A DNA stretch of 64,000 bases from a virus. Shown piece after piece: positions 17,312 to 42,571 of this stretch; position 1 is the first letter of the stretch, and every line of letters begins with the position of its first letter. The stretch lies in the IMG/VR virus record IMGVR_UViG_3300028829_004911. The stretch is one strand, 5' to 3'. A model generated the notes under the pieces. That model made no database searches and had not been told where the DNA came from. It saw only the letters and a program-made list of their open reading frames with translations. A program made the translations under genes and the position numbers.

Positions 17312-17556
17312 TAGCTATTCTTATCGCCCGTCCAATAAGTCACGTCATTGAAGATCTAACAAAAGATGGTGCAGAATTTATAGATAGAGATCGTATGCAT
17401 GGTATCTGGCGCGGAAGTGAATTCAAAATATTTCATGCATATAGGAGAGGACACGCGGAACGGTTATGCGGGCACGTATTCACAGATTTTGCATGTTTCG
17501 GACGCATAGATCCAGAGGTACTTCACTACACAAAAACACGGGTAAGAAGATTATGA
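17308..17556 (+). CDS. Hypothetical protein
   Basis: Track ORF 17254..17556 trimmed to the coupled ATG at 17308. Confidence 0.5.
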   Translation: MIAILIARPISHVIEDLTKDGAEFIDRDRMHGIWRGSEFKIFHAYRRGHAERLCGHVFTDFACFGRIDPEVLHYTKTRVRRL

Positions 17557-18206
17557 TTAGATTTATTGGCGACATTCACGGCAAGCTGGATGAATACGAG
17601 ACATTTCTTGATGCGGATGAAACCGTGCAGATTGGTGACTTCGGATTCGGTTGGTTCAACGATTCCCGACTGAACAAGATCGAAGGGTGGCACAGCAATA
17701 AACTGCTTGGCGATCACAAGTTCATTCGGGGCAATCACGATGATCCCGAACAGTGTATGAACGCTACAGGATGGATCAAGGACGGCACTTTCGACGCAGA
17801 GCGCAGCATCATGTATGTTGGCGGAGCATGGTCGATTGACTGGAAAATGCGCACGCCTGGCGTATCTTGGTGGCCTGACGAAGAACTTTCAGGGCGTGAG
17901 TTTATGGATATACACAATCAGTACGTAAAAAACAAACCGCGTATCATGGTAACACACGACTGCCCTGATGACGCAGCGCTGGCGATGTTTACATTCCCTA
18001 ATTACTTTGGAGATTTTCGCAGCACACGCACTGGTGGAGCTTTGCGTGACATGTTTTATGTCCACAAGCCGGACCTGTGGATATTCGGACACTGGCACAC
18101 ACCGCGCGACGTCACGCTGGATGGAACACGTTTCCTATGTCTAGCAGAGCTTGAGGCCGTCGACGTCGATCCAGAAACTTTGGAAGTTTCCTTTGTTGAC
18201 AACTAA
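17553..18206 (+). CDS. Calcineurin-like metallophosphoesterase
   Basis: GDIHG, GDFGFG, GNHDD, HDCP and GHWH motifs. ATGA-coupled ATG at 17553. Confidence 0.85.
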   Translation: MIRFIGDIHGKLDEYETFLDADETVQIGDFGFGWFNDSRLNKIEGWHSNKLLGDHKFIRGNHDDPEQCMNATGWIKDGTFDAERSIMYVGGAWSIDWKMRTPGVSWWPDEELSGREFMDIHNQYVKNKPRIMVTHDCPDDAALAMFTFPNYFGDFRSTRTGGALRDMFYVHKPDLWIFGHWHTPRDVTLDGTRFLCLAELEAVDVDPETLEVSFVDN

Positions 18207-18372: not shown

Positions 18373-18797
18373 GCGCACCAAATGTAATTAAACAGGCATG
18401 GTACTTCCGCGCCGATGCACAAAACAATTTTGGCAAAGCCGTGTATTTGTTCGGCGACAACTGCAAACGCAGAGGCTATGGTGGGCAGGCAAAAGAAATG
18501 CGGGACGAACCAAACGCAATCGGCATCGCCACGAAGAACACACCAACGTCTGGTAGTAATGCTTATTTCAGTGACGATGACTTTATTGAGAACTGTCGTG
18601 TAATTGCTACAGACTTCCGAGCCGCCTTTCAAGCACGAGATGACGGATTGATCGTAATCTTCCCAACCGATGGACTCGGTACAGGGTTGTCCGAGTTACC
18701 TAAACGCGCTCCGCGCACAAACGCATTCCTTGACGAAATCGTGGAAATGCTCTTCTCAGGAGGACAACCCGCATGGAAGCAGATTCTGAACGATTAA
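18369..18797 (+). CDS. Conserved-looking hypothetical protein
   Basis: Track ORF. FGDN..RRGYGGQA..PNAIGIATK and GLGTGLSEL motifs, family not recognised. Confidence 0.75.
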   Translation: MSAPNVIKQAWYFRADAQNNFGKAVYLFGDNCKRRGYGGQAKEMRDEPNAIGIATKNTPTSGSNAYFSDDDFIENCRVIATDFRAAFQARDDGLIVIFPTDGLGTGLSELPKRAPRTNAFLDEIVEMLFSGGQPAWKQILND

Positions 18798-19972
18798 ATC
18801 CTGAATGGCTACAAGGCCCGCTACGCGGGCTATTGGAAACACTCAACAATGATGGCTTTGAAGCCTTCGCTGTTGGTGGATGCGTACGTGATGCTGTCAT
18901 GGGACGCCCATGTAACGACATCGACGTGTCAACCAACGCCACACCTGATCAAGTTTTCAACACGCTTTACGCTGCTAGGTGGAGAATGGTTCCTACAGGG
19001 GTTGAGCACGGCACATGGACAGCGGTCAAAGATCGTCACACATTCGAGGTGACAACTTACCGTCGCGATGTGGCTACAGACGGACGTCGTGCCACCATTG
19101 CATACGCTGATACCATGAACCAAGACGCTGAGCGCAGGGACTTCACCATGAACGCGCTGTACATGGACCTGAACGGGGAAGTATATGACCCAACAAGAAC
19201 AGGCATTGAAGACGCCAAAGCAGGTCGTATCCGATTCGTTGGCGACGCTGCCACACGATGCCGCGAAGACTACCTACGCATATTGCGATTCTACCGATTC
19301 AATGCGACGCACGGCTTCGACAACATGGACAAAGATGGTATGATAGCATGCGAAGCGTACGCTGCCGGACTAAAAGACATATCGCGTGAGCGTGTGCTGA
19401 TGGAGATGCAGAAGCTGTTATCTGCTGTTAATACGCGGTTCGACAATCCGTCAACAAACAACGCCCATCTGTGGCTGGTACTTACCCGCATGCAGTCGCA
19501 TGGGGTGTTGGATGAAGTGTTCCCGCACGGACACACACTGTATAATCTGTTTGATCTACTGAGCGGCGAAAGTGATTTTGGCGGCACGAACACCGACTGG
19601 CGCACGCGTTTATATACTGTATGCGGCAAAAACGTACCGCTACCGTTGGCGAAAAAAGATCGCGTGTTCGTCGAAACGCTGGCGACTTTGTACAGCAATC
19701 CACAGACGCTGTCCCTCGAAGCGTTGGCACAGGTGCACGGCATGCCGCTTGCGCGCGAGCTGGGGTATCTGCGCAAAGACGACTTTACTGGCAGAGCCTT
19801 GCAAGTGGCTTCTGAACAGAAATTTCCTGTGAAAGCAGTAGATTTCATGGATAGGGGGTTTACACAGGGACAAGAACTTGGTAAAGCAATCCGACAGGCC
19901 AGAGAATTTTGGCTGCACAGAAACATGGCGGCAACACGTGACGAGTGCATCGCTGCAGTTATGGGTGACTGA
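18773..19972 (+). CDS. cca: tRNA nucleotidyltransferase (CCA-adding enzyme, class II)
   Basis: GGCVRD..G....DIDV, GVEHGT, TYRRD, RRDFTMNA and ED.LRILRF.RF motifs. Confidence 0.9.
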   Translation: MEADSERLNPEWLQGPLRGLLETLNNDGFEAFAVGGCVRDAVMGRPCNDIDVSTNATPDQVFNTLYAARWRMVPTGVEHGTWTAVKDRHTFEVTTYRRDVATDGRRATIAYADTMNQDAERRDFTMNALYMDLNGEVYDPTRTGIEDAKAGRIRFVGDAATRCREDYLRILRFYRFNATHGFDNMDKDGMIACEAYAAGLKDISRERVLMEMQKLLSAVNTRFDNPSTNNAHLWLVLTRMQSHGVLDEVFPHGHTLYNLFDLLSGESDFGGTNTDWRTRLYTVCGKNVPLPLAKKDRVFVETLATLYSNPQTLSLEALAQVHGMPLARELGYLRKDDFTGRALQVASEQKFPVKAVDFMDRGFTQGQELGKAIRQAREFWLHRNMAATRDECIAAVMGD

Positions 19973-20657: not shown

Positions 20658-21029
20658 ATGAACACACAACCACAAGTAAGCGTATCCGACATGGTTCTGG
20701 ATTCCGTGAGCGATTCCATCGCGACGGTAAAGAGCATGCTCGGCCTCAAAACAACCACCGAAGTCCTTCCCTTCATGAAGGTCGTCATAGCCTGTCGCTC
20801 GTTAAATGGCGACGCACATGAACAGGTTGTGAAGCCAATCGTCGCTGGCATTCTCGAACAGGTCGAACTGAACCCGGTCGAAAACGCCGCTGACCGTGAG
20901 AAAGCTGTGGAATATGCGGAGCTTATCGCACTGTCCATATCGGACGCGACGCAGCTTATCTATCAGGAGATGCAGCGCCAGGTGCAAGAGCGTGCACAAG
21001 CCTCTGGACAAATCCCACTGGGCAGTTAA
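20658..21029 (+). CDS. Hypothetical protein
   Basis: Track ORF. Confidence 0.75.
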   Translation: MNTQPQVSVSDMVLDSVSDSIATVKSMLGLKTTTEVLPFMKVVIACRSLNGDAHEQVVKPIVAGILEQVELNPVENAADREKAVEYAELIALSISDATQLIYQEMQRQVQERAQASGQIPLGS

Positions 21030-21059
21030 AGAAAAATGATCCTGTCCGCAATTTAGTTG

Positions 21060-21089
21060 TTGACAGGATCACACACCCCTGCGTATACA
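21060..21089 (+). promoter_or_regulatory. Sigma70-like promoter embedded in a 9-bp inverted repeat
   Basis: TTGACA, 18 nt, TATACA. GATCCTGTC (21038-46) and GACAGGATC (21062-70) overlap the -35. Confidence 0.5.
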
Positions 21090-21122
21090 GGGTACACGAA
21101 ACGAGGATTGTTATGAAGCGCT

Positions 21123-21183
21123 CACATGTGTCGGCATACTTCTAATTTTCTTTTTTGAGTAGAGCACAAAGCCTCACGCTTTG
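21123..21183 (+). repeat. Leader repeat copy 1: CACATGTG-N2-GGCATACTTCTA, then hairpin CAAAGC-CTCAC-GCTTTG
   Basis: Read directly. Same two-part unit recurs at 21408-21463. CATACTTCTA alone recurs at 21232-21241. Confidence 0.85.
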
Positions 21184-21252
21184 GCGCTTCTTATCAGTCC
21201 TCGGATTTATGAAAGAGAACGCATTCGTTGACATACTTCTAACAATGGTCAA

Positions 21253-21328
21253 CCTGCGGGTCGTTGGTTCGAATCCAACCTCGGTGCTTGCATCGGGTAG
21301 CTCAGTTGGTAGAGCAGCAGGCTTTAAA
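21253..21328 (+). ncRNA. Circularly permuted tRNA-like element (T arm, then acceptor hairpin capped by CUUG, then D arm, then anticodon-loop-like tail)
   Basis: CCTGC/GCAGG and CTCGGTG/CATCGGG pair. Canonical GTTGG-TTCGAAT-CCAAC and GCTC-AGTTGGTA-GAGC arms. No conventional partner halves nearby. Confidence 0.7.
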
Positions 21329-21407
21329 AGTCGCGAGCTTGTTCTTTTTTATAAATTCGAGATTGACAATATACCACCAATCAAATAGGTGGAACGTAAT
21401 ATCCGAC

Positions 21408-21463
21408 CGCATGTGATGGCATACTTCTATCATGCATTTTAGCAAAGCAAAGCCTCACGCTTT
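21408..21463 (+). repeat. Leader repeat copy 2: CGCATGTG-N2-GGCATACTTCTA, then hairpin AAAGC-CTCAC-GCTTT
   Basis: Direct repeat of 21123-21183. Ends 30 nt before the 21493 start. Confidence 0.85.
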
Positions 21464-21492
21464 AGTCGGACCAAAATAGAAGGAGACGCAAG

Positions 21493-23640
21493 ATGATCGA
21501 CGCCCGCATTATGAGCCTTTTTGGTGCAGTTCTCGTTGAGGACAACGTACCAGCAAACGAAAACGAAGCCACAGTTGTGGACATCGCCGCCTTGGCGCTT
21601 GAATACCGCTACTCGCTGACACCTGAATTCGTTCAGAAGTTGGAAGCGATGACCGGAACCCAGCGTGGCACGATCTTCATACGCATCGGCGAAGCGCTCT
21701 CCACAAACATCGACGGCATCTCGGCGAAGACCTCGCCACTGTACCGACAGTTTCCAAATCACACTATCGTGCCTCTTGAAGCACGTATTTCTGTGTGGAT
21801 GCTGCGTGCACTCGGAGCCGCCCTCGAATTTGACGCACGTGTATATGGTGCTGACCCGGTAACAGGGTTCCAAAGCGACATGCATGGCGCAAACGTGGAC
21901 TTCGATAACGAATACACGCTCGAATTCAAGGCAGAAAAGGGTAACTCTCGCCGCAAGATTCGCTTCTTGAAGCCAATGTCCCATGCGGATTTGGGCGACA
22001 AGGCTGCGGCAATGCTGGGCAACCTAACACCATTCACACCGACCGAACTGGCTTTCGTCAAGTGGTCACTGGATGCTGACATTGTATCGAGTGAAGTTGT
22101 ACGCAACGTGAAGTTCCGCGAAAAGCTGCCCTTGGTAGCCGCAGACCTCTCAGCGGATGTGTATGCCTCTCTCTGTAACTCTGTCACAGATGTTTTACGT
22201 CTCGCTGTACACCTGTCTGGAACGCAAGTCGTTCGCAAGACCGGAACCGGATGGCGCGCACACCTCGTATCCAATGTAACAGTGGAGCCAGACTTGTCTC
22301 TCAACATGAATCCACGCTTCAAGTTGAACAAGAACCAAGGCAAGAAGATGATGAAGATCATCGACGCAATCTTGGAACGCGGCAACACCGATCACGAAAC
22401 AGACTTCATGCGTAACGTTGAATTCTGGAAGCGCTTTGCATCCCACGTTGCAAGCAACCGCCACAACAAGGTCGCGCCGCGTGCCGCCGAAGTCCTGCGC
22501 ACCCTCCGCAAGGGAAACATGCAGTCGTGGGAGCAAAAGTATGCTGCCGCACCTATCGGCTTGAAGATCGATATGGCAATGCAGCGTCCGGGCGAGCTTG
22601 CTCGTCGTATGACTGCGCTTAGCCGTGCAGTTGATGCCGAAGGAAAAGGCCGCAACCGTTTGATCAGCGCCGCGCGTACAGCGTTGCCTGAGGTAAACGC
22701 GATGACATTGCTACAGCTTAACACGCACATGGCGAAAACGGCTAACACCGTGAATCGTTTTCACGCGCTGCCTAACGGCACGTTGATGAAGTCTGAGCGT
22801 GGACGTGAGCCTATCCCGTTTACGGTTAAGGCGGACCTTGAAAAGCACCTTCGCGAACGTCTCGCAGGGACCCTGTCTTTCAGCCGCAAGGGTATTCCAT
22901 CGGATGCCTACGGTATGTTCGTACCTGTCGGTGGTCGCAATGCTTCTGAGGGGGACACGCGTTCCAATCGCGGCGACCGTGTGAAACTGTCCTTCGAAGA
23001 TTCGGATACAATTCGCTTCTTCTTGCATTGGCACGAAAGCTGTGACGTAGACATGTCAGCGGTCGCGTACAATGAAGATTTGGACAAGCTGTTTGATTGT
23101 GCCTATTACAATCTGAATGGGACTGGGATGAAACATTCCGGCGACATTTTGAACGGAAGCAACGGCGCAGCGGAATACATTGACATTGACGTGGCGAAAG
23201 CTAAAGAACGCGGTGTTCGTTATATCCTCATGAACGCGAACGTGTACAGTGGAAACAACTTCGATACGTTTGAATGTAATGTTGGTCTGATGATCCGCGA
23301 CGGGCAAACGGGGCACCACTTCGAGTGCTCAACCGTGGAAAGCAAAATGTCTTTGGACAGCGCCAACCGTAACTGCACGCCAGCCCTGCTGGACCTAGAT
23401 ACGGGTGAAATGATCTATGTTGACCTATCCGGCAACTGGAACCAAGGCGCGAACGTCCACGCCAAGGCTGGAACGCTGAAAGAAACGTTGGATTATTTTG
23501 TCAACTATGGCAAGTACCGCACGTCTTTCGGGGATATAATCGAGTATGCGGGCAGCGACGATCCAGATGCCCCAAAGGCAACGGTAGGTGCCCTACGCGC
23601 CGCACAAGACGAAATCTTGGCTGAAATGGCTGACGCATAA
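21493..23640 (+). CDS. Large protein with a C-terminal TerD-like domain
   Basis: RBS AGAAGGAGA. C-terminal FFLHW..DVDMSAVAY..HSGDILNGSNGAAEYIDIDV..ILMNANVYSG.NF resembles TerD. N-terminal ~500 aa not recognised. Confidence 0.85.
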   Translation: MIDARIMSLFGAVLVEDNVPANENEATVVDIAALALEYRYSLTPEFVQKLEAMTGTQRGTIFIRIGEALSTNIDGISAKTSPLYRQFPNHTIVPLEARISVWMLRALGAALEFDARVYGADPVTGFQSDMHGANVDFDNEYTLEFKAEKGNSRRKIRFLKPMSHADLGDKAAAMLGNLTPFTPTELAFVKWSLDADIVSSEVVRNVKFREKLPLVAADLSADVYASLCNSVTDVLRLAVHLSGTQVVRKTGTGWRAHLVSNVTVEPDLSLNMNPRFKLNKNQGKKMMKIIDAILERGNTDHETDFMRNVEFWKRFASHVASNRHNKVAPRAAEVLRTLRKGNMQSWEQKYAAAPIGLKIDMAMQRPGELARRMTALSRAVDAEGKGRNRLISAARTALPEVNAMTLLQLNTHMAKTANTVNRFHALPNGTLMKSERGREPIPFTVKADLEKHLRERLAGTLSFSRKGIPSDAYGMFVPVGGRNASEGDTRSNRGDRVKLSFEDSDTIRFFLHWHESCDVDMSAVAYNEDLDKLFDCAYYNLNGTGMKHSGDILNGSNGAAEYIDIDVAKAKERGVRYILMNANVYSGNNFDTFECNVGLMIRDGQTGHHFECSTVESKMSLDSANRNCTPALLDLDTGEMIYVDLSGNWNQGANVHAKAGTLKETLDYFVNYGKYRTSFGDIIEYAGSDDPDAPKATVGALRAAQDEILAEMADA

Positions 23641-24054: not shown

Positions 24055-24577
24055 AGAGGACCCCAAGGCTCTTTGGGAAATTCTCGTCCCTTGCCAATAT
24101 AACGACGGCACTCCGGTTACCACCAAACACCACAAAGAGTGGGACCGAAAGGTGATGATGGTGTCCGGCGGACTGACCATCCTAAAACCCGTTACAGGGC
24201 AATGGTCCTTCGGGGGCAAAGTGTATCGGGACCGAAATATTCCTGTACGCATTCTCGGAACGGATGCTGATATTTCCAAGATAATTGGGATGACCATGAT
24301 GCATTACGAACAACTTGCCATCATCGCTTATACTATCAGTGAGCGTGCACAGGTATTCGAAACGCCTCAGGGAATGGTTGACAATTTTTTTTTCGAAAGG
24401 GATCAAATGGCGAGTGAAGATGTAAAGACGGCAGCAGCCGAAGCGTTGACGTATAATCGAATGGGTGGCGTAACTAAAGAAATGATCGAGGACATATGTT
24501 TTGACCATAAAGTCGATATGGGTGATGTTCTTGAAGAAATGGAATGGGGAAGAGACCACTATGACAACGTATCTTAA
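24044..24577 (+). CDS. Hypothetical protein
   Basis: Track ORF, overlaps both neighbours. Confidence 0.75.
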   Translation: MPIKEDPKALWEILVPCQYNDGTPVTTKHHKEWDRKVMMVSGGLTILKPVTGQWSFGGKVYRDRNIPVRILGTDADISKIIGMTMMHYEQLAIIAYTISERAQVFETPQGMVDNFFFERDQMASEDVKTAAAEALTYNRMGGVTKEMIEDICFDHKVDMGDVLEEMEWGRDHYDNVS

Positions 24578-25280
24578 CATTGAATCAATCCCGTTTTGGG
24601 CACCGGAGCAAGTGCGGCTACGCCGCCTAATCACCTCGGCGGTAGCGGATGCGGTAATCCCCGCACTTTCCGAAATCAACAAGGCATGGACGTTCCATGA
24701 AATAGACGGTCCTATCCTAACGCCGCAGATTTGCATGAACAAAGAATACACAGGTGACGACGTGTTCTTCACCCAAGTTTTCAAGTCGGAAAATCAACTG
24801 GCTTTGCGCCCTGAAACCACGCCGTCTTCTTATCAGTATGCGCGTGAGCGCTTCCGTAACAAGAAGAGTTTTCCGGCATGTGTATGGCAAGCCGGAAAAT
24901 CCTTCCGTGTAGAGGCATCAGACGGCGCGCGCGCTGCCACCCTCCGATTCAATGAATTCTACCAACTGGAATTCCAGTGCATCTATGCCAAAGGGACTAT
25001 GGCAGATTATCGCACGCCAGTCACCACCGCGATGCGCACAGCGCTTGACGCCGTGATGTTGGGGACGTCTCGTCTGGTGGAATCCGACCGACTTCCTAGC
25101 TACAGCACGCAGACCATGGACATTGAAATGCCATGGAAAGGTGAGTGGAAAGAGATTGCGAGCATTTCCACCCGAACAGATTTTGGCGACGAATACGAAG
25201 TTCTTGAACTGGCCCTCGGACTTGACCGCGCGGTATTGATTGCGGAACAAAACTACGCCTCACGAAAGGAATCCATGTAA
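24561..25280 (+). CDS. Stand-alone class II aminoacyl-tRNA-synthetase-like catalytic core (GlyRS-like), no anticodon-binding domain
   Basis: LALRPETTPSSY..WQAGKSFRVE...RFNEFYQLEFQ (motif 2-like) and LELALGLDRAVL (motif 3-like). Only 239 aa. Confidence 0.7.
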   Translation: MTTYLNIESIPFWAPEQVRLRRLITSAVADAVIPALSEINKAWTFHEIDGPILTPQICMNKEYTGDDVFFTQVFKSENQLALRPETTPSSYQYARERFRNKKSFPACVWQAGKSFRVEASDGARAATLRFNEFYQLEFQCIYAKGTMADYRTPVTTAMRTALDAVMLGTSRLVESDRLPSYSTQTMDIEMPWKGEWKEIASISTRTDFGDEYEVLELALGLDRAVLIAEQNYASRKESM

Positions 25281-28067: not shown

Positions 28068-28628
28068 ATGGCATCAATACTCACAGTCATTGACGCCCAC
28101 GAAGGGCCAACCGAAATCGACACAACAGTAGGCGGAGTGTTATTCTGCGACGTAGATGGAACTGTTGCTGATTTTACACACCGTCGGCTTGCATCCGAAG
28201 CTGTTCCAAAGGCGTATAAATGGCCCGTGTTTCGGAAGAACATGGATCAGGACCTGCCAATCCAGCCAATCATAGACGCCGTTAAGACGTTGAAAGCTGC
28301 CGGATGGGTCGTGGTTATGATGACAGCCCGCAGTCGCATTGATTTGGAGGTCACCGAAGAGTGGTTAGCAAAATACGGCATAACCTACGATGCAATCTAT
28401 ATCCGCGACGATTGGGTGCGCAATGAAGATGGCTCCATCAAACTGACCCGCAAGGGCAAGCAAATGCCAGACAGCCGTAAAGACGATATCGTGAAAACAG
28501 AGTTATTGGCAAAGGCGCGTGCGGATGGATACGATCCAACACTGGTATTTGATGATCGAAATCAGGTTGTAGATATGTGGCGCTCGCACGGTATCATGTG
28601 TGTTCAAGTTGCAGAAGGAGATTTCTAA
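28068..28628 (+). CDS. HAD-type polynucleotide 3'-phosphatase (Pnkp phosphatase-domain-like)
   Basis: DVDGTVA, MMTARS and VFDDRNQVVDMWRSHGIMCVQVAEGDF, as in the T4 Pnkp C-terminal domain. Confidence 0.8.
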   Translation: MASILTVIDAHEGPTEIDTTVGGVLFCDVDGTVADFTHRRLASEAVPKAYKWPVFRKNMDQDLPIQPIIDAVKTLKAAGWVVVMMTARSRIDLEVTEEWLAKYGITYDAIYIRDDWVRNEDGSIKLTRKGKQMPDSRKDDIVKTELLAKARADGYDPTLVFDDRNQVVDMWRSHGIMCVQVAEGDF

Positions 28629-29301: not shown

Positions 29302-30588
29302 ATGTACCCAGCTATTCAGCATATATCCGAAATACTCCCAGCGGTGGATGGCGATAGCGCCTTCCGCGTGGTCGAAAAGGATTGTGGATATACCTATATC
29401 AACTACAACCATATGGGCAGCGACGTGTTCCCACCAATGCCAACCGATGCGGAGTGGGAACAAGCACAAGGGGATGAATGGGAAAACCACGTTCTCGACC
29501 AAGATTCACTGAGAAGCGCCCTAAGACGCGAATGCCGTGGTATTGCCTTTAATACTGCGTCAGGCTTTATTGCATCCCGCCCTTTCCACAAGTTCTTCAA
29601 CGCTGGCGAACGTGAAGAAGTATCAATGACTGCGCTCCCTTTTAACACCCCACACGTTATCATGGATAAAATGGATGGATCCATGATGCGCCCGTTCTTG
29701 GTCGCAGATAAAGTGCGGTGGGGCACCAAAATGGGTCCTGATACTGACGTTGCAAAAATGGCACAGATTTTCGCAGCACAGTATGATAAGTATGAGAACA
29801 TGGCGCGCGCCTGCATGGAACTAGGTGTTACCCCCATCTTCGAATATGTGTCTAAAGAAAACCGCATCGTCGTATCTTATCCAAAGCGTGACATGGTCTT
29901 GCTGGCTATTCGAGAAACTATAAGTGGGGTATACTGGTCCCGCGAAGACGTTCTCCAAGTCGCAAACGCTTTCGACGTACCTGTTGTAGATGTTTATAAT
30001 GCCGACATCGGCAATAATACAGGATTAGATGCATGGGATACAACTACCAACGAAGGCCTCGCCACAAAGTTTGTCCAAAGTATTCGACAATCTTCGGACA
30101 TTCCCGAAGGCGTCGTCTTGTGGTGGCCTAGTTGGGGCTTTGTAAAGGTAAAGACAGAAGAATACGTTGATTTACACAGAGCGAAAGAGAAGATGGCGAC
30201 GGAGCGAAATCTCATCACCGTTATTCTCTCAGATACAATCGATGATCTTCTTCCCTTACTGGACACCGAAGATCAAGATCGACTAACTGCATTTGTAGAT
30301 TCTTTCTGGGGCGAAATGAATTTGCTTGAAGACAAGATAGAAACCTACTACGAGTGGTCAAAACGGGATTTCGACACAAAACGAGGTTTCGCTGTAAGCG
30401 GTAAATTGGCAGACCAACCTCACATTCGTTCACTCGTGTTCGCATTGTGGGACGGCAAGCTGGAAGACAGCCAGAAAGCAGCAATGAAAGCACTTGAGAG
30501 CGGGCTAGTGTCTGAAACTAAGTGGCGAGAAATAAAAGACAAATGGGAATTCTCATTTGACTGGAACGAAACGGAGGACAATGAATGA
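29302..30588 (+). CDS. ATP-dependent RNA ligase, Rnl1-like
   Basis: Motif I DKMDGS, EGVV, and FVKVKTEEYVDLH resembling T4 Rnl1 HFKIKSDWYVSLH. Confidence 0.8.
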   Translation: MYPAIQHISEILPAVDGDSAFRVVEKDCGYTYINYNHMGSDVFPPMPTDAEWEQAQGDEWENHVLDQDSLRSALRRECRGIAFNTASGFIASRPFHKFFNAGEREEVSMTALPFNTPHVIMDKMDGSMMRPFLVADKVRWGTKMGPDTDVAKMAQIFAAQYDKYENMARACMELGVTPIFEYVSKENRIVVSYPKRDMVLLAIRETISGVYWSREDVLQVANAFDVPVVDVYNADIGNNTGLDAWDTTTNEGLATKFVQSIRQSSDIPEGVVLWWPSWGFVKVKTEEYVDLHRAKEKMATERNLITVILSDTIDDLLPLLDTEDQDRLTAFVDSFWGEMNLLEDKIETYYEWSKRDFDTKRGFAVSGKLADQPHIRSLVFALWDGKLEDSQKAAMKALESGLVSETKWREIKDKWEFSFDWNETEDNE

Positions 30589-31082
30589 ATGATCTTGTAA
30601 CGGCTAATGGAAACATCGCGGGGCCAGTATGTGTTCTGCTTGTGGGTTTACCTGGTTCGGGTAAATCCACATGGCGTACCAGCTTGGGGACCAACTACAC
30701 TTTCTTATCGACAGACGACTATGTCGAGAAAGTAGCGAAAGCATACGGAACCACTTATGACCGTGTTTGGGTGCAACACATCGATGAAGCCACAAAGGCT
30801 ATGGATATCGAATTCCGTGAAGCCATCGAATCGAAAAAATCAATTGCGGTTGATCGCACCAATTTGTCCCTAAAATCACGTAGAAAGTTTTTATCACAAT
30901 TACCTAAGATCTATTCTAAAGTAGCTGTATACTTTGAAATCGATGAAGAACTTAGACAAATGAGAATGAAAGGTCGCGAAGGAAAATTGATACCTGCTGC
31001 TGCGGATGATCGATTACGTTCGGCGTACGTACGCCCAACGAAAGATGAAGGTTTCGACATGATTTTGACAGGTGTCGCATGA
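30585..31082 (+). CDS. Polynucleotide 5'-kinase-like P-loop protein
   Basis: GLPGSGKSTW Walker A, ~165 aa, ATGA-coupled to the RNA ligase. Confidence 0.7.
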   Translation: MNDLVTANGNIAGPVCVLLVGLPGSGKSTWRTSLGTNYTFLSTDDYVEKVAKAYGTTYDRVWVQHIDEATKAMDIEFREAIESKKSIAVDRTNLSLKSRRKFLSQLPKIYSKVAVYFEIDEELRQMRMKGREGKLIPAAADDRLRSAYVRPTKDEGFDMILTGVA

Positions 31083-31645: not shown

Positions 31646-32770
31646 ATGACACATGATGTCTTGACCTTTATTGGTCGTTTTCAGCCGTTCCACAACGGAC
31701 ACAAGGCTGTAGTTGATGAAGCACTTACCAAGGCGGAGAAAGTTGCCTTGGTAATCGGGAGCGATCAACAACCGCGCTACGCGCGTAACCCGTGGACTAC
31801 ACAAGAACGCATAGACATGATCACCGCCGTCTATCCAGACGAGGTTGCATCTGGACGCCTCCATTTCTGTCCACAGGTTGATCACACGTACAACTTAGAC
31901 CGCTGGATTGGTGGAATTCAATCAAGTGCAGTTACAGTGGCCCAGAAAACACATAATATGGGTATTATTGGGCACTCAAAAGATGCGTCAAGTTTCTACC
32001 TCAAAGCGTTTCCAACATGGGAAAACATTGAGGCGGCAAACGTGGAAGGCATCAACGCAACTGATATTCGTAAAGATTATCTGGAGAATGAGGACTGGCA
32101 AACGCGCTGGTCTGAGAAACTGCCAGAGGAAGTTTTACATTGGCTGGAGGACTGGCAGGACAGTACTGGGTTCGAACAAGTGGCACAAGAGCATGCGTTA
32201 TTAAAGAAGTACAAGAAACAGTTCATACGTCCGTCTGATAAAGAGATTCGAAAATTCGCTGTAAATAACGGGATGGCAGACTACATCAGTGCTGATGTAA
32301 AAATGCTCAATGATTTCGCTGATGCATATTGTCCAAAATACCCTCCGGTATTCTACACCGCTGACGCGGTTGTAGTGCAAGCGGGTCACATTCTGTTGGT
32401 GAAACGTGGCGGGTTTCCTGGCCAAGGTCTCTGGGCGTTGCCGGGTGGATTTGTCAATGAGACAGAAGATAGCCGCGTAGCGGCTATTCGCGAACTACGC
32501 GAAGAGACCCGTCTGGCGGTGCCACAACCCGTTCTAAACGGATCAATTACCGAGTCACGCGAATTCAGTGATCCGTATCGATCACAGCGTGGACGTACTG
32601 TCACCATGGCATACAAATTCGAACTGTCCGACAATAACGGCGGAGGCCTACCGAAAGTTAAAGGGGCCGATGATGCTGTAAAGGCTGTATGGGTGCCTAT
32701 TTCTGAGCTACGCCGCGACAAAATGTTCGAGGATCACTACGATATTATTGAATGTATGGTGGGTTTATAA
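31646..32770 (+). CDS. natV: Bifunctional NMN adenylyltransferase / Nudix hydrolase (NadM-Nudix type)
   Basis: GRFQPFHNGH motif plus Nudix box GGFVNETEDSRVAAIRELREET. Confidence 0.9.
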   Translation: MTHDVLTFIGRFQPFHNGHKAVVDEALTKAEKVALVIGSDQQPRYARNPWTTQERIDMITAVYPDEVASGRLHFCPQVDHTYNLDRWIGGIQSSAVTVAQKTHNMGIIGHSKDASSFYLKAFPTWENIEAANVEGINATDIRKDYLENEDWQTRWSEKLPEEVLHWLEDWQDSTGFEQVAQEHALLKKYKKQFIRPSDKEIRKFAVNNGMADYISADVKMLNDFADAYCPKYPPVFYTADAVVVQAGHILLVKRGGFPGQGLWALPGGFVNETEDSRVAAIRELREETRLAVPQPVLNGSITESREFSDPYRSQRGRTVTMAYKFELSDNNGGGLPKVKGADDAVKAVWVPISELRRDKMFEDHYDIIECMVGL

Positions 32771-33078
32771 TGGTTGAAGCAATCAAACCAACGGACGTCG
32801 CTGAAACAAAAGCAGCCACTATGCCAGACGCAGTCATTACGGCTTGGAACAACATTATCGCCAAAAATTTCAGCAACGGAAGAGCGTGCGTCCGTCAAAA
32901 TGATATCATCGCCACGCTGATGCCTCACACGAAAGATGGACAGAGCGCGCAAGTTTTCGCGGAAGGGTGGCTTGATATCGAAGAGATTTACCGTGCGCAA
33001 GGGTGGGAAGTTGTATACAACAAGCCTGCATATTCCGAAACAGGCATACCCACATTCATATTCAAGGCCAAGGAATAG
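32770..33078 (+). CDS. Hypothetical protein
   Basis: TAATG-coupled ATG within track ORF 32752..33078. Confidence 0.7.
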   Translation: MVEAIKPTDVAETKAATMPDAVITAWNNIIAKNFSNGRACVRQNDIIATLMPHTKDGQSAQVFAEGWLDIEEIYRAQGWEVVYNKPAYSETGIPTFIFKAKE

Positions 33079-33112
33079 ATTCTAGCCTATAACGAGAGAA
33101 GGAGATTTTCTC

Positions 33113-34510
33113 ATGCATAAACTACTATCACCCATTACACGAACCGACAGTTACAAGGTATCCCACTTCACGCAATATCCAGATAACACAACCCATGTGT
33201 CGTCCTACATTGAAGCCCGTGGCGGTGAATACGATGAGACCGTATTCTTTGGCTTACAAGCTTTCATCAAAGAATACCTGCAAACACCGATCACCGAAGA
33301 GGACGTGCAGGCAGCAAAGGCGCTATTGGAAGCGCACGGAGAACCCTTCAACGAAGAGGGGTGGATGATCATCGTAGATGAACATGAAGGCATCCTGCCT
33401 ATCGAAATTAAAGCAGTTGCCGAGGGCACGGTGATGCCCACAGGCAACGTACAGGTACAGGTGGTAAACACCGATCCACGCCTGCCGTGGTTGACGTCCT
33501 ATGTGGAGACCAAACTACTACGTGCTGTGTGGTATCCATCAACAGTAGCAACACTGAGCCGCGAAGTGAAGAAGATCATCTATCAAGGGCTGGTATTGAC
33601 TGCGGACAATCCTGATGAAGAAATCCCGTTCAAACTACACGACTTCGGCGGACGAGGCGCAACGTGCTCCGAATCAGCATTACTGGGTGGCATGGCACAC
33701 TTGGTTAACTTCATGGGCACAGACACTGTAGAAGGCCTCATTGGACCCATTGCTTATTACAATGCAGAAGGACCCGTAGGGTATTCTATCCCTGCAACGG
33801 AGCACAGCACTGTAACATCGTGGGGGCGTGATGGGGAACCAGCGATGCTGGAAAACCTGCTCGATAACAACCCCACAGGACTGGTTGCCTGTGTTATTGA
33901 CAGCTACGATGCAGAGAACTTCGCCCGAAACATTGTTGGAGGTGTGCTGAAAGAAAAAATCTTGGCTCGCGACGGCGTATTCGTCGCACGCCCCGACAGT
34001 GGTGATCCGGTTCTCATGCCTGTCAACATCATCGAAATCTTGATGGACAAGTTTGGGTTCGAAGTGAACAGTAAGGGGTTCAAGGTTCTTCCTCCGCAGG
34101 TGCGCGTTCTACAGGGTGATGGTATGGATATTGACAAAATCCGTCGCCTCATGATATGTCTACATGATCGTGGGCTGTCTGTATCCAACATTGCCGTTGG
34201 CATGGGAGGCGGCTTGTTGCAGAAGGTTGACCGTGATACGTGTAAATATGCCATGAAAGCTAGCGCGCGTAAGACTGATGATAAATGGTTCGACGTCTAT
34301 AAAGACCCAATCACCGACCAAGGTAAGCGATCTAAGAAAGGTGTTCTTGCGTTGGTAAAACGCGACACAGGGTTTGAAACAATTCGCGCGGAGAACCTAG
34401 TTAAAGGAGGGCACGGTGTTGAGCGTAATTATCTGCGCACCGTGTATCTCAATGGAGACCTGTCTATTGATGACACCTTCGACACGGTACGCGAGCGTGC
34501 AAAAATATAA
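33113..34510 (+). CDS. nadV: Nicotinamide phosphoribosyltransferase (NAMPT)
   Basis: TDSYKVSHF.QYP N-terminus, HDFGGRG and 465-aa length typical of NadV. Confidence 0.9.
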   Translation: MHKLLSPITRTDSYKVSHFTQYPDNTTHVSSYIEARGGEYDETVFFGLQAFIKEYLQTPITEEDVQAAKALLEAHGEPFNEEGWMIIVDEHEGILPIEIKAVAEGTVMPTGNVQVQVVNTDPRLPWLTSYVETKLLRAVWYPSTVATLSREVKKIIYQGLVLTADNPDEEIPFKLHDFGGRGATCSESALLGGMAHLVNFMGTDTVEGLIGPIAYYNAEGPVGYSIPATEHSTVTSWGRDGEPAMLENLLDNNPTGLVACVIDSYDAENFARNIVGGVLKEKILARDGVFVARPDSGDPVLMPVNIIEILMDKFGFEVNSKGFKVLPPQVRVLQGDGMDIDKIRRLMICLHDRGLSVSNIAVGMGGGLLQKVDRDTCKYAMKASARKTDDKWFDVYKDPITDQGKRSKKGVLALVKRDTGFETIRAENLVKGGHGVERNYLRTVYLNGDLSIDDTFDTVRERAKI

Positions 34511-41581: not shown

Positions 41582-42571
41582 ATGTCACATATCAAATTTC
41601 CAAGCATCGAGAGCTACGCACACGTATACCGCAGCCAACAACGTTTCGACGTACCTTCATCGGTAAAGTATGGCGCGAAGATCAAACTCCACGGCACCAA
41701 TGCCGCCGTACGTATTTCAGCGAAGGGGGACGTGGTAGCGCAGGGACGCAACCGCGATATATTCGTAGGAGAAGATCAATTTGGTTTTGCAGGTTTCGTG
41801 GACAAGAACGACAGCGACTGGCGCGTAGCTGCCACTAAATTCCTGACGGCACTGAGCCTACAACGCGATGACGTAGTGGTTCACGGAGAATGGGCAGGTC
41901 CGGGCATCCAGAAAAAAGATGCAGTCTCTACGTTGGCAAAGAAATACTTCTTCATTTTTGCGGTACAAGTTGGGGACGCCATGTACACAGATCCTGACGT
42001 GATCGAAGCAGCCGTGCCTGATCTTGACAACCTTTTAGTTCTGCCATGGTTCATCGAAGTTCCTAATATGATGAATTTCGCGGATGCCAGTTTGTGTGAC
42101 TATTTTGCCAGTTGGGCAAATCGTCAGGCAAATATCATCGGTGAACGAGATCCTTTCATAGAAGAAATTTTCGGCGTAGAAGGTCCTGGGGAAGGTCTGG
42201 TGTTCGTTCCAATGGCGCAGGGCATCGACCGAAACGTGTACAGTGCGCTAACGTTCAAAGCCAAGTGCGAAGGACACGGTGCTAAAGCGGGTCCAGCGGT
42301 CGTTCGTGATTTGGTCATTCCAAAAGGTGTAGAAGACTTTGTGAAGACGTTTGTTACCGAAGCACGCTGTGAACAGGCTGTTTCCGAAGGGTGTGGCGGG
42401 ATTGCAACACTGGAAAAGACTGGCGACTTTCTCAAGTGGATTGGACAAGACGTGGCGAAAGAAAGTGGCGAAGAACTCTCTGAAATGGATCTCGAATGGA
42501 AACAGGTGCAAAAGTACGTCATCACCGCAGCGAAACTGTGGTTCCGCGCCAAAGCGACGGCAATCGTATGA
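41582..42571 (+). CDS. RNA ligase, Rnl2-like
   Basis: Motif I KLHGTN. HGEWAGPGIQK resembles T4 Rnl2 FGEFAGPGIQK. 329 aa. Confidence 0.8.
   Translation: MSHIKFPSIESYAHVYRSQQRFDVPSSVKYGAKIKLHGTNAAVRISAKGDVVAQGRNRDIFVGEDQFGFAGFVDKNDSDWRVAATKFLTALSLQRDDVVVHGEWAGPGIQKKDAVSTLAKKYFFIFAVQVGDAMYTDPDVIEAAVPDLDNLLVLPWFIEVPNMMNFADASLCDYFASWANRQANIIGERDPFIEEIFGVEGPGEGLVFVPMAQGIDRNVYSALTFKAKCEGHGAKAGPAVVRDLVIPKGVEDFVKTFVTEARCEQAVSEGCGGIATLEKTGDFLKWIGQDVAKESGEELSEMDLEWKQVQKYVITAAKLWFRAKATAIV

What the first reader, a model, noticed from the sequence alone, without database searches (positions are those of the whole stretch)
21253..21328. A complete tRNA encoded in circularly permuted order with a CUUG-capped acceptor stem
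Seen directly, in this order:
- CCTGC (21253-57), then GGGTC;
- T arm GTTGG-TTCGAAT-CCAAC (21263-79);
- CTCGGTG (21280-86);
- loop CTTG (21287-90);
- CATCGGG (21291-97), then TA;
- D arm GCTC-AGTTGGTA-GAGC (21300-15), then A;
- GCAGG (21317-21);
- CTTTAAA (21322-28).

CCTGC and GCAGG are perfect complements, matching an anticodon stem. CTCGGTG and CATCGGG pair 7 of 7 with two G.U pairs, matching an acceptor stem. The closing G-C pair around CUUG matches the stable G(CUUG)C tetraloop class. CTTTAAA has the format of an anticodon loop (Y32, U33, A37). No conventional 5' half lies upstream and no 3' half lies downstream, so the ends of this tRNA fold sit in the anticodon loop.

Three readings:
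- (a) A tRNA mimic like the tRNA-like module of bacterial YrlA-type Y RNAs.
- (b) A permuted tRNA gene matured by end-joining. This phage carries a CCA-adding enzyme, Pnkp-like kinase and phosphatase, and two RNA ligases, one of them Rnl1-like, the class that seals anticodon-loop breaks.
- (c) Debris of tandem tRNA genes.

The tetraloop and the matched stems argue against pure debris.
Basis: partly seen in the sequence, partly recalled or inferred. Interest (0 to 1): 0.9.

Follow-up and report, generated by a model that had tools for sequence, protein, structure and literature searches.

The report
tRNA mimic in phage Y-like RNA
A phage small RNA folds into a complete tRNA shape whose own ends lie where the anticodon would be. 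It is one of three related structured RNAs that sit in front of a large protein gene of unknown function, and it looks like a Ro60-free cousin of bacterial Y RNAs rather than a working tRNA gene.

Summary
Window 21253-21321 encodes variable loop, T arm, 7-bp acceptor hairpin, D arm and a 5-bp anticodon-like stem in permuted order.

It is not debris. The same module lies next to homologues of the downstream 715-aa gene in 12 loci. 23 of 32 pairs show compensatory changes, and 90% of cells are paired against 42-52% for slid controls.

It is the middle unit (B) of three paralogous units, A 21102-21203, B 21213-21348 and C 21402-21470. All three share:
- a closing stem;
- a CRCA/CYYY internal loop;
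- a second stem with an invariant U.G;
- an invariant loop sequence, AUACUUCUA.

Rfam's YrlA model matches only the tRNA-like core (40.3 bits; gathering score 69). The Ro60-binding motif GNCGAAN0-1G is absent. No Ro60 gene is found in the window or in two complete related phage genomes.

The scaffold instead travels with a roughly 700-aa family that has a TerD-like C-terminal domain (2,526 cluster representatives). This holds in roseophages, jumbo phages, Lactobacillus and Rhodococcus phages, and some bacterial islands.

Best reading: a Ro60-independent, Y-RNA-like tRNA mimic. The permuted-tRNA-gene reading is unlikely, because the would-be anticodon is not conserved.

Verdict: a new variant of a known kind.

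The parts
21060..21089 (+). Promoter-like site ahead of unit A: TTGACA (21060-65), an 18-nt spacer, then TATACA (21084-89). Inferred.
   Evidence: Read directly. TTGACA stands at the same relative place in L015 and L016, and TTGAC at the same place in L141, L143 and L140. The strict consensus scan found no promoter, so this is an inference only.
21102..21203 (+). Unit A, a short box RNA without a tRNA module. It has a 20-nt closing stem (21102-21121 with 21184-21203), the box CATACTTCTA at 21135-44, and a GUAGAGC remnant of a D arm at 21159-65.
   Evidence: Inverted repeat I1. Fold energy -39.2 kcal/mol, z=-4.66, 0 of 200 shuffles as good. Model R2 scores 74.7 bits. Covariation of the closing stem and stem 2 across 22 short units.
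21213..21348 (+). Unit B, the same scaffold carrying the tRNA-like module. P1 pairs 21213-19 with 21342-48. The internal loop is CGCA (21220-23) opposite CUUG (21338-41). Stem 2 pairs 21224-32 with 21330-37. The loop begins AUACUUCUAA at 21233-42.
   Evidence: Model R1 scores 132.4 bits. P1 is 7/7 paired. Stem 2 is 7/7 paired, with an invariant U.G and covarying pairs in 12 B units.
21253..21321 (+). Permuted tRNA-like module (the finding). In order: anticodon-like stem 3' strand 21253-57; variable loop 21258-62; T arm 21263-79; acceptor hairpin 21280-97 (7 bp, CUUG loop); U8 A9; D arm 21300-15; A26; anticodon-like stem 5' strand 21317-21.
   Evidence: Rfam YrlA 40.3 bits, E 3e-7. Covariation: acceptor 83/84 cells paired, anticodon-like stem 56/60, T stem 60/60, D stem 48/48. 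On the whole structure, 0 of 500 shuffles reach the observed score. RNAalifold predicts the same four stems on its own.
21363..21368 (+). TTGACA between units B and C, a likely -35 element of the promoter for unit C plus the 715-aa gene. Inferred.
   Evidence: TTGACA stands at the same place in L016, L004, L017, L019 and L139. It is absent in L015.
21402..21470 (+). Unit C, a short box RNA that ends 8 nt before the ribosome-binding site of the 715-aa gene. The closing stem pairs TCCGAC (21402-07) with GTCGGA (21465-70). The box is at 21420-29.
   Evidence: Model R2 scores 63.4 bits. Repeats D1 and D4. A unit sits in the same position in all close homologous loci.
21493..23640 (+). 715-aa protein, helical in its N-terminal part with a TerD-like beta-sandwich at the C terminus. 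It is the candidate protein partner or regulated gene.
   Evidence: No Pfam hit. AlphaFold2 mean pLDDT 78. Foldseek against PDB matches only TerD structures 3ibz and 2qz7, with no Ro60. NCBIfam gives a partial hit to the MXAN_6230/SCO0854 family. The family has 2,526 cluster representatives. Box RNAs lie next to the gene in every locus of the close subfamily (14 of 14) and in most distant homologues examined.
18773..19972 (+). CCA-adding tRNA nucleotidyltransferase. This is context: an enzyme that recognises the acceptor/T minihelix that unit B imitates.
   Evidence: Pfam PolyA_pol 107 bits. NCBIfam CCA tRNA nucleotidyltransferase 188 bits, below that model's cut-off of 290. In other clades an RlaP-family nucleotidyltransferase directly follows the 715-aa homologue.

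Best explanation
Window 21253-21321 is the tRNA-mimic arm of a small non-coding RNA, unit B (21213-21348). It is not a tRNA gene. Unit B is one of three paralogous units, A, B and C.

Shared scaffold (shown). Each unit has:
- a closing stem made from its own 5' and 3' ends;
- a conserved 4x4 internal loop, CRCA opposite CYYY;
- a second stem with an invariant U.G pair;
- a loop that opens with the invariant sequence AUACUUCUA.
In unit B a full T arm, 7-bp acceptor hairpin, D arm and 5-bp anticodon-like stem are inserted into that loop.

Expression (inferred). The units appear to be read from sigma-70-like promoters. Unit C forms the end of the 5' leader of the 715-aa gene.

Mechanism (inferred). 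The shared scaffold is the docking or operator site for the TerD-domain protein encoded immediately downstream. This parallels the way a Y RNA stem holds Ro60. The L-shaped arm of unit B would present an authentic acceptor/T minihelix and D/T elbow to an enzyme that recognises tRNA. Candidates are RNase P, the phage CCA-adding enzyme or an RlaP-type nucleotidyltransferase, or PNPase. It would act either as a tether or as a decoy during infection.

Shown: the structure, its conservation, the linkage to the protein family, and the absence of Ro60.
Inferred: transcription, protein binding and the recruited enzyme.

My confidence differs by step. It is about 0.9 that this is a selected, structured tRNA mimic and not a tRNA gene or debris. 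It is about 0.5 that the downstream protein is its direct partner.
For: - Structure. Four stems covary in 12 loci: 90% of cells paired against 42-52% when slid, 23 of 32 pairs with double changes, 0 of 500 shuffles as good. The Levitt 15-48 pair covaries, G-C to A-U in L002b. The acceptor strands are exactly 7 nt, with 7 bp in 11 and 6 bp in 1 of the 12 aligned modules, and by reading the sequences also in L149, L150 and L011. In L153 only 6 bp can form.
- Scaffold. P1 averages 6.75 of 7 pairs in 40 units from 14 loci, with very different sequences. Stem 2 covaries in 22 short units and in 12 B units. The box occurs 3 times in the window against 0.09 expected.
- Kinship with YrlA. It is the only Rfam match. 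A Ro60-linked Streptomyces-phage YrlA scores 67 bits on model R1, and its GUCGAAUG motif aligns with the CgCAU of this family. Tandem-tRNA junctions score only 32-39 bits.
- Link to the protein. Units lie directly upstream of homologues in all 14 close loci. They also lie next to homologues at 23-30% identity: L011, L149 and L153, L155, L006 and L010, Lactobacillus phage LpeD, and Rhodococcus phage Weasels2, where the unit is downstream of the gene.
- Model R2 finds nothing in the two Ro60 loci.
- Nucleotidyltransferase neighbours.
Against: - There is no expression or binding data. Promoters are inferred, and the strict scan found none.
- The protein has no recognisable RNA-binding domain.
- L150 and L154 have units but no homologue within the DNA held.
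- No unit was detected next to some distant homologues (L005, L008, L012-L014).
- A unit that ends just before the ribosome-binding site fits pure cis-regulation as well as it fits an RNP.
- A host Ro60 could still be the partner. Host genomes were not searched.
Confidence: 0.6

Rival explanations
1. Two-piece, CCA-ended tRNA mimic. RNase P cuts 5' of C21291 in the acceptor loop, the loop remnant is trimmed, and the phage CCA-adding enzyme adds CCA. The RNA would then have a free acceptor end like a two-piece tmRNA, and could be charged or serve as a decoy or substrate for enzymes that attack or repair tRNA. This adds to the best explanation rather than replacing it.
For: - The acceptor strands are exactly 7 nt in all 12 aligned modules, with 7 bp formed in 11 of them. 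Chen et al. 2014 (PMC4201824) report that M. smegmatis YrlA, the one with a 7-bp stem, is cut by RNase P and receives CCA in vivo.
- The acceptor loop tolerates anything from 4 nt to an insertion of about 99 nt in L017 and L019.
- An encoded ACCA follows the acceptor 3' strand in L002b and L011.
- CCA-adding or RlaP nucleotidyltransferases are neighbours. RlaP adds 1-2 nucleotides to damaged RNA 3' ends (PMC12776372).
Against: - The window sequence has CUUG, a stable tetraloop, rather than CCA.
- Two ACCA cases among 17 modules is only suggestive. About 0.27 NCCA are expected by chance.
- There is no cleavage data.
- S. Typhimurium YrlA is not cleaved.
Confidence: 0.25
2. Purely cis-regulatory leader. 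The units are operators or sensors that control translation of the 715-aa gene, for example by the pyrimidine-rich box CUUCU pairing with the Shine-Dalgarno sequence, with no function in trans.
For: - The last unit ends 8-20 nt before the ribosome-binding site in all close loci and in L155, L010 and L006.
- In the window, UAGAAG in the ribosome-binding region (21477-82) is a perfect complement of CUUCUA.
Against: - Units A and B are closed by their own stems, and in L155 each unit has its own promoter-like site.
- In Weasels2 the units lie downstream of the gene.
- A leader has no obvious need for a complete, covarying tRNA fold.
- Any pyrimidine-rich loop pairs with a purine-rich ribosome-binding site, so that match says little.
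Confidence: 0.2
3. Classical YrlA. The RNA works with a Ro60 (Rsr) protein supplied by the host or encoded outside the window.
For: The module order and tertiary-contact nucleotides match YrlA. NNCGCAUG occupies the place of the Ro60 motif GNCGAAN0-1G in the model alignment.
Against: - No Ro60 in the 64-kb window, by tblastn and by HMM.
- With the Agrobacterium-phage Ro60 as query, 369 phage records hold Ro60 and none is a Rhodobacter or Ruegeria phage. RcXuper and RpAliso are complete genomes. The Streptomyces-phage query gave 363 records; two organism names in its summary were not shown.
- The canonical motif is absent.
- The score is below Rfam's threshold.
- The scaffold follows a different protein family across phyla.
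Confidence: 0.07
4. Permuted tRNA gene. The transcript is cut and its ends joined in the anticodon loop by the phage Pnkp and Rnl1, giving a circular or re-linearised functional tRNA, here an ochre-reading UUA.
For: The rotated sequence (21291-21328 followed by 21253-21287) is called tRNA(tta) by ARAGORN. C32-U33-like CU follows the stem in 7 of 12 homologues, and AA precedes it in 11 of 12. The phage encodes an RNA repair toolkit.
Against: - The would-be anticodon 7-mers differ: CTTTAAA, CTCAAAA, CTGGAAA, CTCACAA, CGGGTAA, CAAAATG and so on.
- About 75 nt of conserved, covarying scaffold would have to be excised.
- The same scaffold exists without any tRNA in units A and C.
- No bulge-helix-bulge motif and no splicing endonuclease are known in bacteria.
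- The flanks are far too short for split group I intron halves.
Confidence: 0.03
5. Debris of tandem tRNA genes left by a deletion.
For: Junctions of real tandem tRNAs give similar local matches: blastn hits in cyanophages and R1 hits of 32-39 bits.
Against: The arrangement is conserved, with compensatory changes in all stems, in 12 or more loci whose neighbouring protein is only 44-83% identical. There is no 5' half upstream and no 3' half downstream in any of them.
Confidence: 0.01

Closest known systems
YrlA-type bacterial and phage Y RNAs (Rfam RF02553; Chen et al. 2014, PMC4201824)
   Same: - Module order: T arm, capped acceptor-like stem, D arm, then an anticodon-like stem that leads into a long stem made by the RNA's own ends.
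- The tRNA tertiary-contact nucleotides are kept: U8-A14, G15-C48, G18/G19, T-loop.
- Several paralogous RNAs sit side by side, one with the tRNA module and others without (like YrlA and YrlB), on the same strand as a large protein gene.
- A conserved motif lies just inside the closing stem.
   Different: - 40.3 bits against a gathering score of 69.
- GNCGAAN0-1G is replaced by NNCRCAU opposite a conserved 3' CGCYYY.
- An extra invariant loop sequence, AUACUUCUA, that the Ro60-linked YrlA in L003 lacks.
- No Ro60/TROVE gene. The linked gene encodes a roughly 700-aa protein with a TerD-like domain.
[quoted passage not shown]
   Same: A 7-bp acceptor stem, the feature that paper links to RNase P cleavage.
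   Different: Processing is not shown here. The partner protein and the scaffold differ.
Circularly permuted tRNA genes of Cyanidioschyzon merolae
   Same: The 3' half lies upstream of the 5' half with a short linker across the acceptor end. The rotated sequence passes a tRNA finder.
   Different: Those genes yield decoding tRNAs through bulge-helix-bulge splicing and circular intermediates. Here no anticodon is conserved, there is no such motif, and the flanks are a conserved functional scaffold.
Two-piece (permuted) tmRNA of Alphaproteobacteria (Rfam RF04321, RF01849)
   Same: Permuted order with the T arm and acceptor 3' strand ahead of the acceptor 5' strand. Related phages RcXuper and RpAliso carry a real one a few hundred nt upstream.
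   Different: No tag reading frame and no pseudoknots. Rfam gives no match at this site. This RNA has a full D arm.
Type III toxin-antitoxin RNA arrays (ToxI/ToxN)
   Same: Tandem structured RNA units directly upstream of, and on the same strand as, the protein gene they are thought to bind. Both occur in phages and mobile islands.
   Different: The units here are 70-135 nt and diverged rather than identical 36-nt repeats. The protein is about 700 aa and has no match in PADLOC.

Membership tests
YrlA / bacterial Y RNA (RF02553) | tRNA-like domain: T arm, capped acceptor-like stem, D arm in that order, with conserved tertiary-contact nucleotides | tested here: met
   cmscan aligns model positions 23-85 to 21255-21319. 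U8, A14, G15-C48, GG in the D loop and the T loop are all present.
YrlA / bacterial Y RNA (RF02553) | Score at or above Rfam's gathering threshold (69 bits) | tested here: not met
   40.3 bits. Model positions 1-22 and 86-114, the Ro60-binding stem, are not matched.
YrlA / bacterial Y RNA (RF02553) | GNCGAAN0-1G motif near the 5' end (proposed Ro60 contact) | tested here: not met
   No match in 21030-21492. CTCACATGT, AACGCATTC and ACCGCATGT stand in its place.
YrlA / bacterial Y RNA (RF02553) | Encoded within about 4 kb of a Ro60/TROVE gene on the same strand | tested here: not met
   tblastn with two phage Ro60 proteins and an HMM built from them find nothing in the window or in 14 related loci. 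No Rhodobacter or Ruegeria phage appears among the 369 phage records that hold Ro60.
YrlA / bacterial Y RNA (RF02553) | Long stem formed by the 5' and 3' ends of the RNA | tested here: met
   P1 and stem 2 are supported by covariation.
YrlA / bacterial Y RNA (RF02553) | Bound by Ro60 in vivo | not testable with these tools
   Needs immunoprecipitation.
Canonical tRNA gene | Contiguous cloverleaf detected by a tRNA finder or Rfam RF00005 | tested here: not met
   ARAGORN genes in the window and none in the native 21200-21360 stretch. Nothing in the window reaches an Rfam gathering score, so RF00005 is not matched.
Circularly permuted tRNA gene | The rotated sequence forms a valid tRNA | tested here: met
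   ARAGORN calls tRNA(tta), 73-76 nt.
Circularly permuted tRNA gene | A conserved 7-nt anticodon loop and anticodon identity after joining, across orthologues | tested here: not met
   The 7-mers after the stem differ in nearly all of the 12 homologues.
Circularly permuted tRNA gene | Processing motif at the transcript ends (bulge-helix-bulge) and a circular intermediate | not tested
   No such motif was searched for formally. The ends form a long regular stem with a 4x4 internal loop. Circular RT-PCR is needed.
Two-piece tmRNA | Match to RF04321 or RF01849 with a tag reading frame | tested here: not met
   The only hit is 11.5 bits, E 7.9, at 21541-21594 inside the ORF. True tmRNAs in L001 and L002 score 83-130 bits on RF04321 and RF01849.
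Known anti-phage defence system components (PADLOC) | The neighbouring protein matches a defence model | tested here: not met
   0 families for the 715-aa protein and four neighbours.

The most novel reading that the evidence does not exclude
The AUACUUCUA-box RNAs and the roughly 700-aa TerD-domain proteins form a widespread, undescribed phage ribonucleoprotein. It would be the functional counterpart of Ro60 with its Y RNA, built on an unrelated protein. Its tRNA-shaped member would be opened at the acceptor loop by RNase P and given CCA by the phage nucleotidyltransferase. The result would be a two-piece tRNA mimic that steers tRNA repair or absorbs host nucleases that target tRNA.
Probability: 0.2. 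Interest if true: 0.85.

Novelty: new variant of a known kind. Interest (0 to 1): 0.68.

Why it matters
What the tRNA-like domain of Y RNAs does is still an open question. So far it has been studied only together with Ro60.

Here the same kind of tRNA mimic is kept under strong structural selection on a different scaffold, without Ro60. It sits next to a large uncharacterised phage protein family with 2,526 cluster representatives.

This suggests the tRNA-shaped arm is a portable module that can serve different protein partners.

It also offers tractable systems for testing this. Ruegeria phage RpAliso on R. pomeroyi DSS-3 and Rhodobacter phage RcXuper on R. capsulatus are both isolated phages on named laboratory host strains.

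Finally, it defines an unannotated RNA family. No Rfam model covers the scaffold, and it lies in stretches of phage genomes with no annotated feature.

Tried and rejected
- Ro60 as a neighbour. I searched with two phage Ro60 proteins and an HMM built from them and found nothing.
- The 715-aa protein as a divergent Ro60. Foldseek against PDB finds only TerD domains.
- Defence-system assignment. PADLOC gives no match.
- tmRNA. The only hit is at chance level.
- Pattern scan GCATN{7,8}CATACTTCTA of viral contigs. The 14 specified bases are too few, so nearly all of the 119 stretches were chance matches. Model R1 found no family member in 100 of them; its only 2 hits were partial matches to the tRNA-like core.
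- Protein-based scan of bacterial genomes. It returned only Salipiger mucosus.
- My first scaffold model, a box hairpin such as TTGAC/GTCAA plus a hairpin AAGC-N5-GCUU. I dropped it because the second hairpin showed no double changes and was 75% paired (helix 7). RNAalifold on 22 short units found a better supported stem 2, with GGC/GCC and an invariant U.G.
- Strict sigma-70 and terminator scan. It found nothing, so the promoters stay inferred.
- The class II aaRS-like ORF at 24501-25280 as a dedicated charging enzyme. It is not conserved next to the RNAs in L016.
- Anticodon-arm mimicry by the box. The loop sequence equals the tRNA-Arg(UCU) anticodon loop CUUCUAA (compare L152). However, the flanking bases do not form a 5-bp anticodon stem consistently.
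Full report
**1. The observation**

- CCTGC, then GGGTC;
- T arm GTTGG-TTCGAAT-CCAAC;
- CTCGGTG, then CTTG, then CATCGGG, then TA;
- D arm GCTC-AGTTGGTA-GAGC, then A;
- GCAGG, then CTTTAAA.

ARAGORN finds no tRNA in the whole 64-kb window. Nothing in the window reaches an Rfam gathering score. With permissive thresholds, the only meaningful Rfam hit in 20800-21800 is YrlA (RF02553). It scores 40.3 bits at E=3e-7 and aligns model positions 23-85 of 114, which is just the T-acceptor-D core, to 21255-21319. When the two halves are rotated (21291-21328 followed by 21253-21287), ARAGORN calls a 73-nt tRNA with anticodon UUA.

**2. Surroundings in the window**

The window is part of a large phage. 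Its genes include:
- rIIA and rIIB;
- a family A DNA polymerase, an SNF2 helicase, NAMPT, and a NadR-like nucleotidyltransferase-NUDIX fusion;
- an RNA repair set: a CCA-adding enzyme at 18773-19972, a metallophosphatase at 17466-18206, a HAD_PNKP phosphatase at 28068-28628, an Rnl1-type ligase at 29302-30588, an AAA_33 kinase-like ORF at 30585-31082 and a second RNA ligase at 41582-42571.

The finding lies in a 463-nt gap between an ORF that ends at 21029 and a 715-aa ORF at 21493-23640. That gap holds three copies of CATACTTCTA, at 21135, 21232 and 21420. These are the only three in the window, against 0.09 expected by chance. The first copy lies inside a 102-nt element closed by a 20-nt stem. 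That element folds at -39.2 kcal/mol with z=-4.7.

**3. Relatives**

The 715-aa protein has no Pfam domain. It has homologues at 43-83% identity in metagenomic phage contigs, in Ruegeria phage RpAliso, in Rhodobacter phage RcXuper, and in the genomes of Sulfitobacter sp. R18_1 and Salipiger mucosus. I fetched 14 such loci.

Every one carries two to four box units directly upstream of the gene on the same strand. Eleven of the 14 carry at least one unit with a permuted tRNA-like module. RpAliso has two.

In L017 and L019 the acceptor loop holds a structured insertion of about 99 nt, yet the 7-nt acceptor strands on either side still pair.

**4. Is the fold selected?**

I cut 12 modules into their elements by hand. 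The counts of paired cells were:

| Stem | Cells paired |
|---|---|
| Acceptor | 83 of 84, with up to six different pair types at one position |
| Anticodon-like | 56 of 60 |
| T | 60 of 60 |
| D | 48 of 48 |

The acceptor strands are 7 nt in all 12 modules, with 7 bp formed in 11 and 6 bp in one. The 15-48 Levitt pair switches from G-C to A-U in L002b.

On an unguided MAFFT alignment (A3), 90% of cells pair, against 42-52% when the partners are slid by one to three columns. 23 of 32 pairs show changes on both sides, and none of 500 shuffles reaches the observed values. RNAalifold, with no guidance, predicts the same four stems, and 19 of its 22 pairs have compensatory changes. This rules out debris.

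**5. The scaffold**

All units share the same frame, with or without the tRNA module.

- Closing stem (P1). In 40 units from 14 loci, the seven bases before the 5' motif pair with seven bases at a fixed distance downstream. The mean is 6.75 of 7 pairs, and the sequences are very different from unit to unit.
- Stem 2. RNAalifold on 22 short units found a second stem. It has an invariant U.G, an adjacent pair that covaries (G-C, A-U, U-A), two variable pairs, and GGC pairing with GCC. Overall 86% of cells are paired against 38-46% when slid, and 11 of 13 pairs show double changes. The same pairs hold in the 12 tRNA-bearing units. Examples are GAC/GUC in the window and AGC/GCU in L017.
- Internal loop. 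Between the two stems lies a conserved 4x4 loop, CRCA opposite CYYY.
- Loop. Stem 2 closes a loop that opens with the invariant AUACUUCUA.

In unit B the tRNA module sits inside that loop, so the ends of the tRNA fold lie in a multi-helix junction and not in a 7-nt anticodon loop.

Unit A keeps GUAGAGC. In most relatives this reads UGGUAGAGC, which is the 3' part of a D arm. Unit A therefore looks like a B-type unit that lost its core.

TTGACA hexamers stand before unit A and between units B and C in most loci. The strict promoter scan reported none, so transcription from these sites is an inference.

**6. Relation to Y RNAs**

A covariance model of unit B (R1) gave these scores:

| Target | Score |
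|---|---|
| Family members | 102-138 bits |
| Junctions of real tandem tRNAs | 32-39 bits |
| Unannotated RNA 2 kb upstream of the annotated Ro-like protein of Streptomyces phage Blueeyedbeauty (L003) | 67 bits |

In the L003 alignment, the phage YrlA's GUCGAAUG, which is the GNCGAAN0-1G motif that Chen et al. 2014 (PMC4201824) connect with Ro60 binding, falls on the CgCAU of this family. The YrlA has a gap where the AUACUUCUA box stands.

The two RNA types therefore share their general plan: several paralogous RNAs, a long terminal stem with a conserved motif just inside it, and one paralogue carrying a tRNA-like domain.

The window RNA nevertheless fails the tests for YrlA membership:
- It scores below the gathering threshold.
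- It has no GNCGAAN0-1G.
- There is no Ro60. tblastn with two phage Ro60 proteins and an HMM built from them find nothing in the window or in related loci.
- With the Agrobacterium-phage Ro60 as query, none of the 369 phage records that hold Ro60 is a Rhodobacter or Ruegeria phage, although RcXuper and RpAliso are complete genomes. The first Ro60 query gave 363 records, but two organism names in its summary were not shown.

The short-unit model R2 finds no match in the two Ro60 loci I held.

**7. The linked protein**

AlphaFold2 gives a confident model, with mean pLDDT 78. Foldseek against PDB matches only the C-terminal 180 residues, to TerD structures 3ibz and 2qz7. The helical N-terminal two-thirds match nothing solved, and Ro60 does not appear. 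Among predicted viral structures, full-length matches are uncharacterised proteins of Lactobacillus phage LpeD and Campylobacter phages. NCBIfam gives a partial match to the MXAN_6230/SCO0854 RING-domain family. PADLOC gives nothing. A profile search finds 2,526 cluster representatives.

The RNA follows this family well beyond the close subfamily:
- A viral-contig scan for box plus T loop found AT-rich phages whose units score 70-95 bits. The homologous ORF lies directly downstream in L149 and L153. The same holds in L011, which was found through its protein.
- A 741-aa relative (L155) has two short units, each with its own promoter-like site.
- Jumbo-phage loci L006 and L010 have CUUCCUUCUA units right before the gene.
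- Lactobacillus phage LpeD has two GCUUACUUCUA units before its homologue.
- Rhodococcus phage Weasels2 has a short unit and a tRNA-bearing unit just after its homologue.

There are exceptions. L150 and L154 hold units but no homologue within the DNA I held; GIY-YIG genes lie between the units. I found no unit next to a few distant homologues.

**8. Other neighbours**

An RlaP-family nucleotidyltransferase (PF10127) directly follows the gene in L001, L002, L004, L017, L019 and L139. In the window and in L015 a CCA-adding enzyme lies 1.5 kb upstream. RlaP adds one or two nucleotides to damaged RNA 3' ends and helps restore tRNA function (PMC12776372). Enzymes that read tRNA acceptor ends are therefore recurring neighbours.

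**9. Weighing the readings**

- Debris is excluded by covariation.
- A permuted tRNA gene is unlikely. The bases that would form the anticodon loop are not conserved. About 75 nt of selected scaffold would have to be removed. The scaffold also exists without any tRNA.
- A classical Ro60 partner is unlikely, for the reasons given in section 6. A host Ro60 was not excluded.
- Best supported: a Y-RNA-like small RNA whose common scaffold binds, or is regulated by, the downstream TerD-domain protein, and whose tRNA-shaped arm engages an enzyme that recognises tRNA.
- Processing at the acceptor loop remains open. In its favour are the exact 7-bp stem, tolerance of any loop, encoded ACCA in L002b and L011, and the M. 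smegmatis precedent.

**10. Verdict**

The object is not a YrlA member. It is the tRNA-bearing unit of an undescribed RNA family tied to a different protein. I rate it a new variant of a known kind, with interest 0.68.

Noticed in passing
L001 3216-3632; L002 2875-3181: RcXuper and RpAliso carry a permuted alphaproteobacterial tmRNA (Rfam RF04321 at 108-130 bits; RF01849 at 83-106 bits). It is not annotated in either GenBank record, and it lies a few hundred nt upstream of the box-RNA cluster.
   Followed up: partly
window 21541-21594: A chance-level tmRNA_permuted hit (11.5 bits, E 7.9) lies inside the 5' end of the 715-aa ORF. The peptide there, PANENEATVVDIAALA, resembles an SsrA tag. It may be coincidence.
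   Followed up: no
window 24501-25280: A 259-aa ORF resembles a class II aminoacyl-tRNA synthetase catalytic core (Pfam tRNA-synt_2b 38.7 bits; weak GlyRS, HisRS and HisZ matches), with no anticodon-binding domain. It lies three genes downstream of the RNAs and is absent at the same place in L016.
   Followed up: partly
L017 3690-3790; L019 3692-3790: An insertion of about 99 nt sits inside the acceptor loop of the tRNA-like module. In L017 it contains a second T-arm-like hairpin, CGUAUGG-GUUCGAC-CAUACG.
   Followed up: no
L152 1711-1893: This is a genuine phage tRNA-Arg(UCU). Its anticodon arm, ACAUA-CUUCUAA-UAUGU, has the same sequence as the family's invariant box CAUACUUCUAA. That hints the box may descend from, or imitate, this anticodon loop.
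   Followed up: partly
L001 2372-2502: An unannotated tRNA-like gene with an insertion of about 55 nt between its halves (RF00005 31.3 bits) directly follows tRNA-Met in RcXuper.
   Followed up: no
L141 5540-8115: In Sulfitobacter sp. R18_1, units A and B and the 704-aa gene lie directly 3' of a tRNA gene, near SIR2, phospholipase-like and DUF5131 genes. It looks like an integrated island.
   Followed up: no
L154 6800-11300; L150 1-4500: These AT-rich phage contigs have several box and tRNA-like units interspersed with GIY-YIG endonuclease ORFs, in a region otherwise almost free of ORFs. No TerD-family gene lies within the DNA held.
   Followed up: partly
window 21037-21071: A 15-nt-arm hairpin lies right after the upstream ORF, and its 3' arm contains the TTGACA of the inferred promoter for unit A. 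The same arrangement occurs in L015 and L016.
   Followed up: no
window 31646-34510: NAD salvage genes (a NadR-like nucleotidyltransferase-NUDIX fusion and NAMPT) lie next to the RNA repair genes.
   Followed up: no
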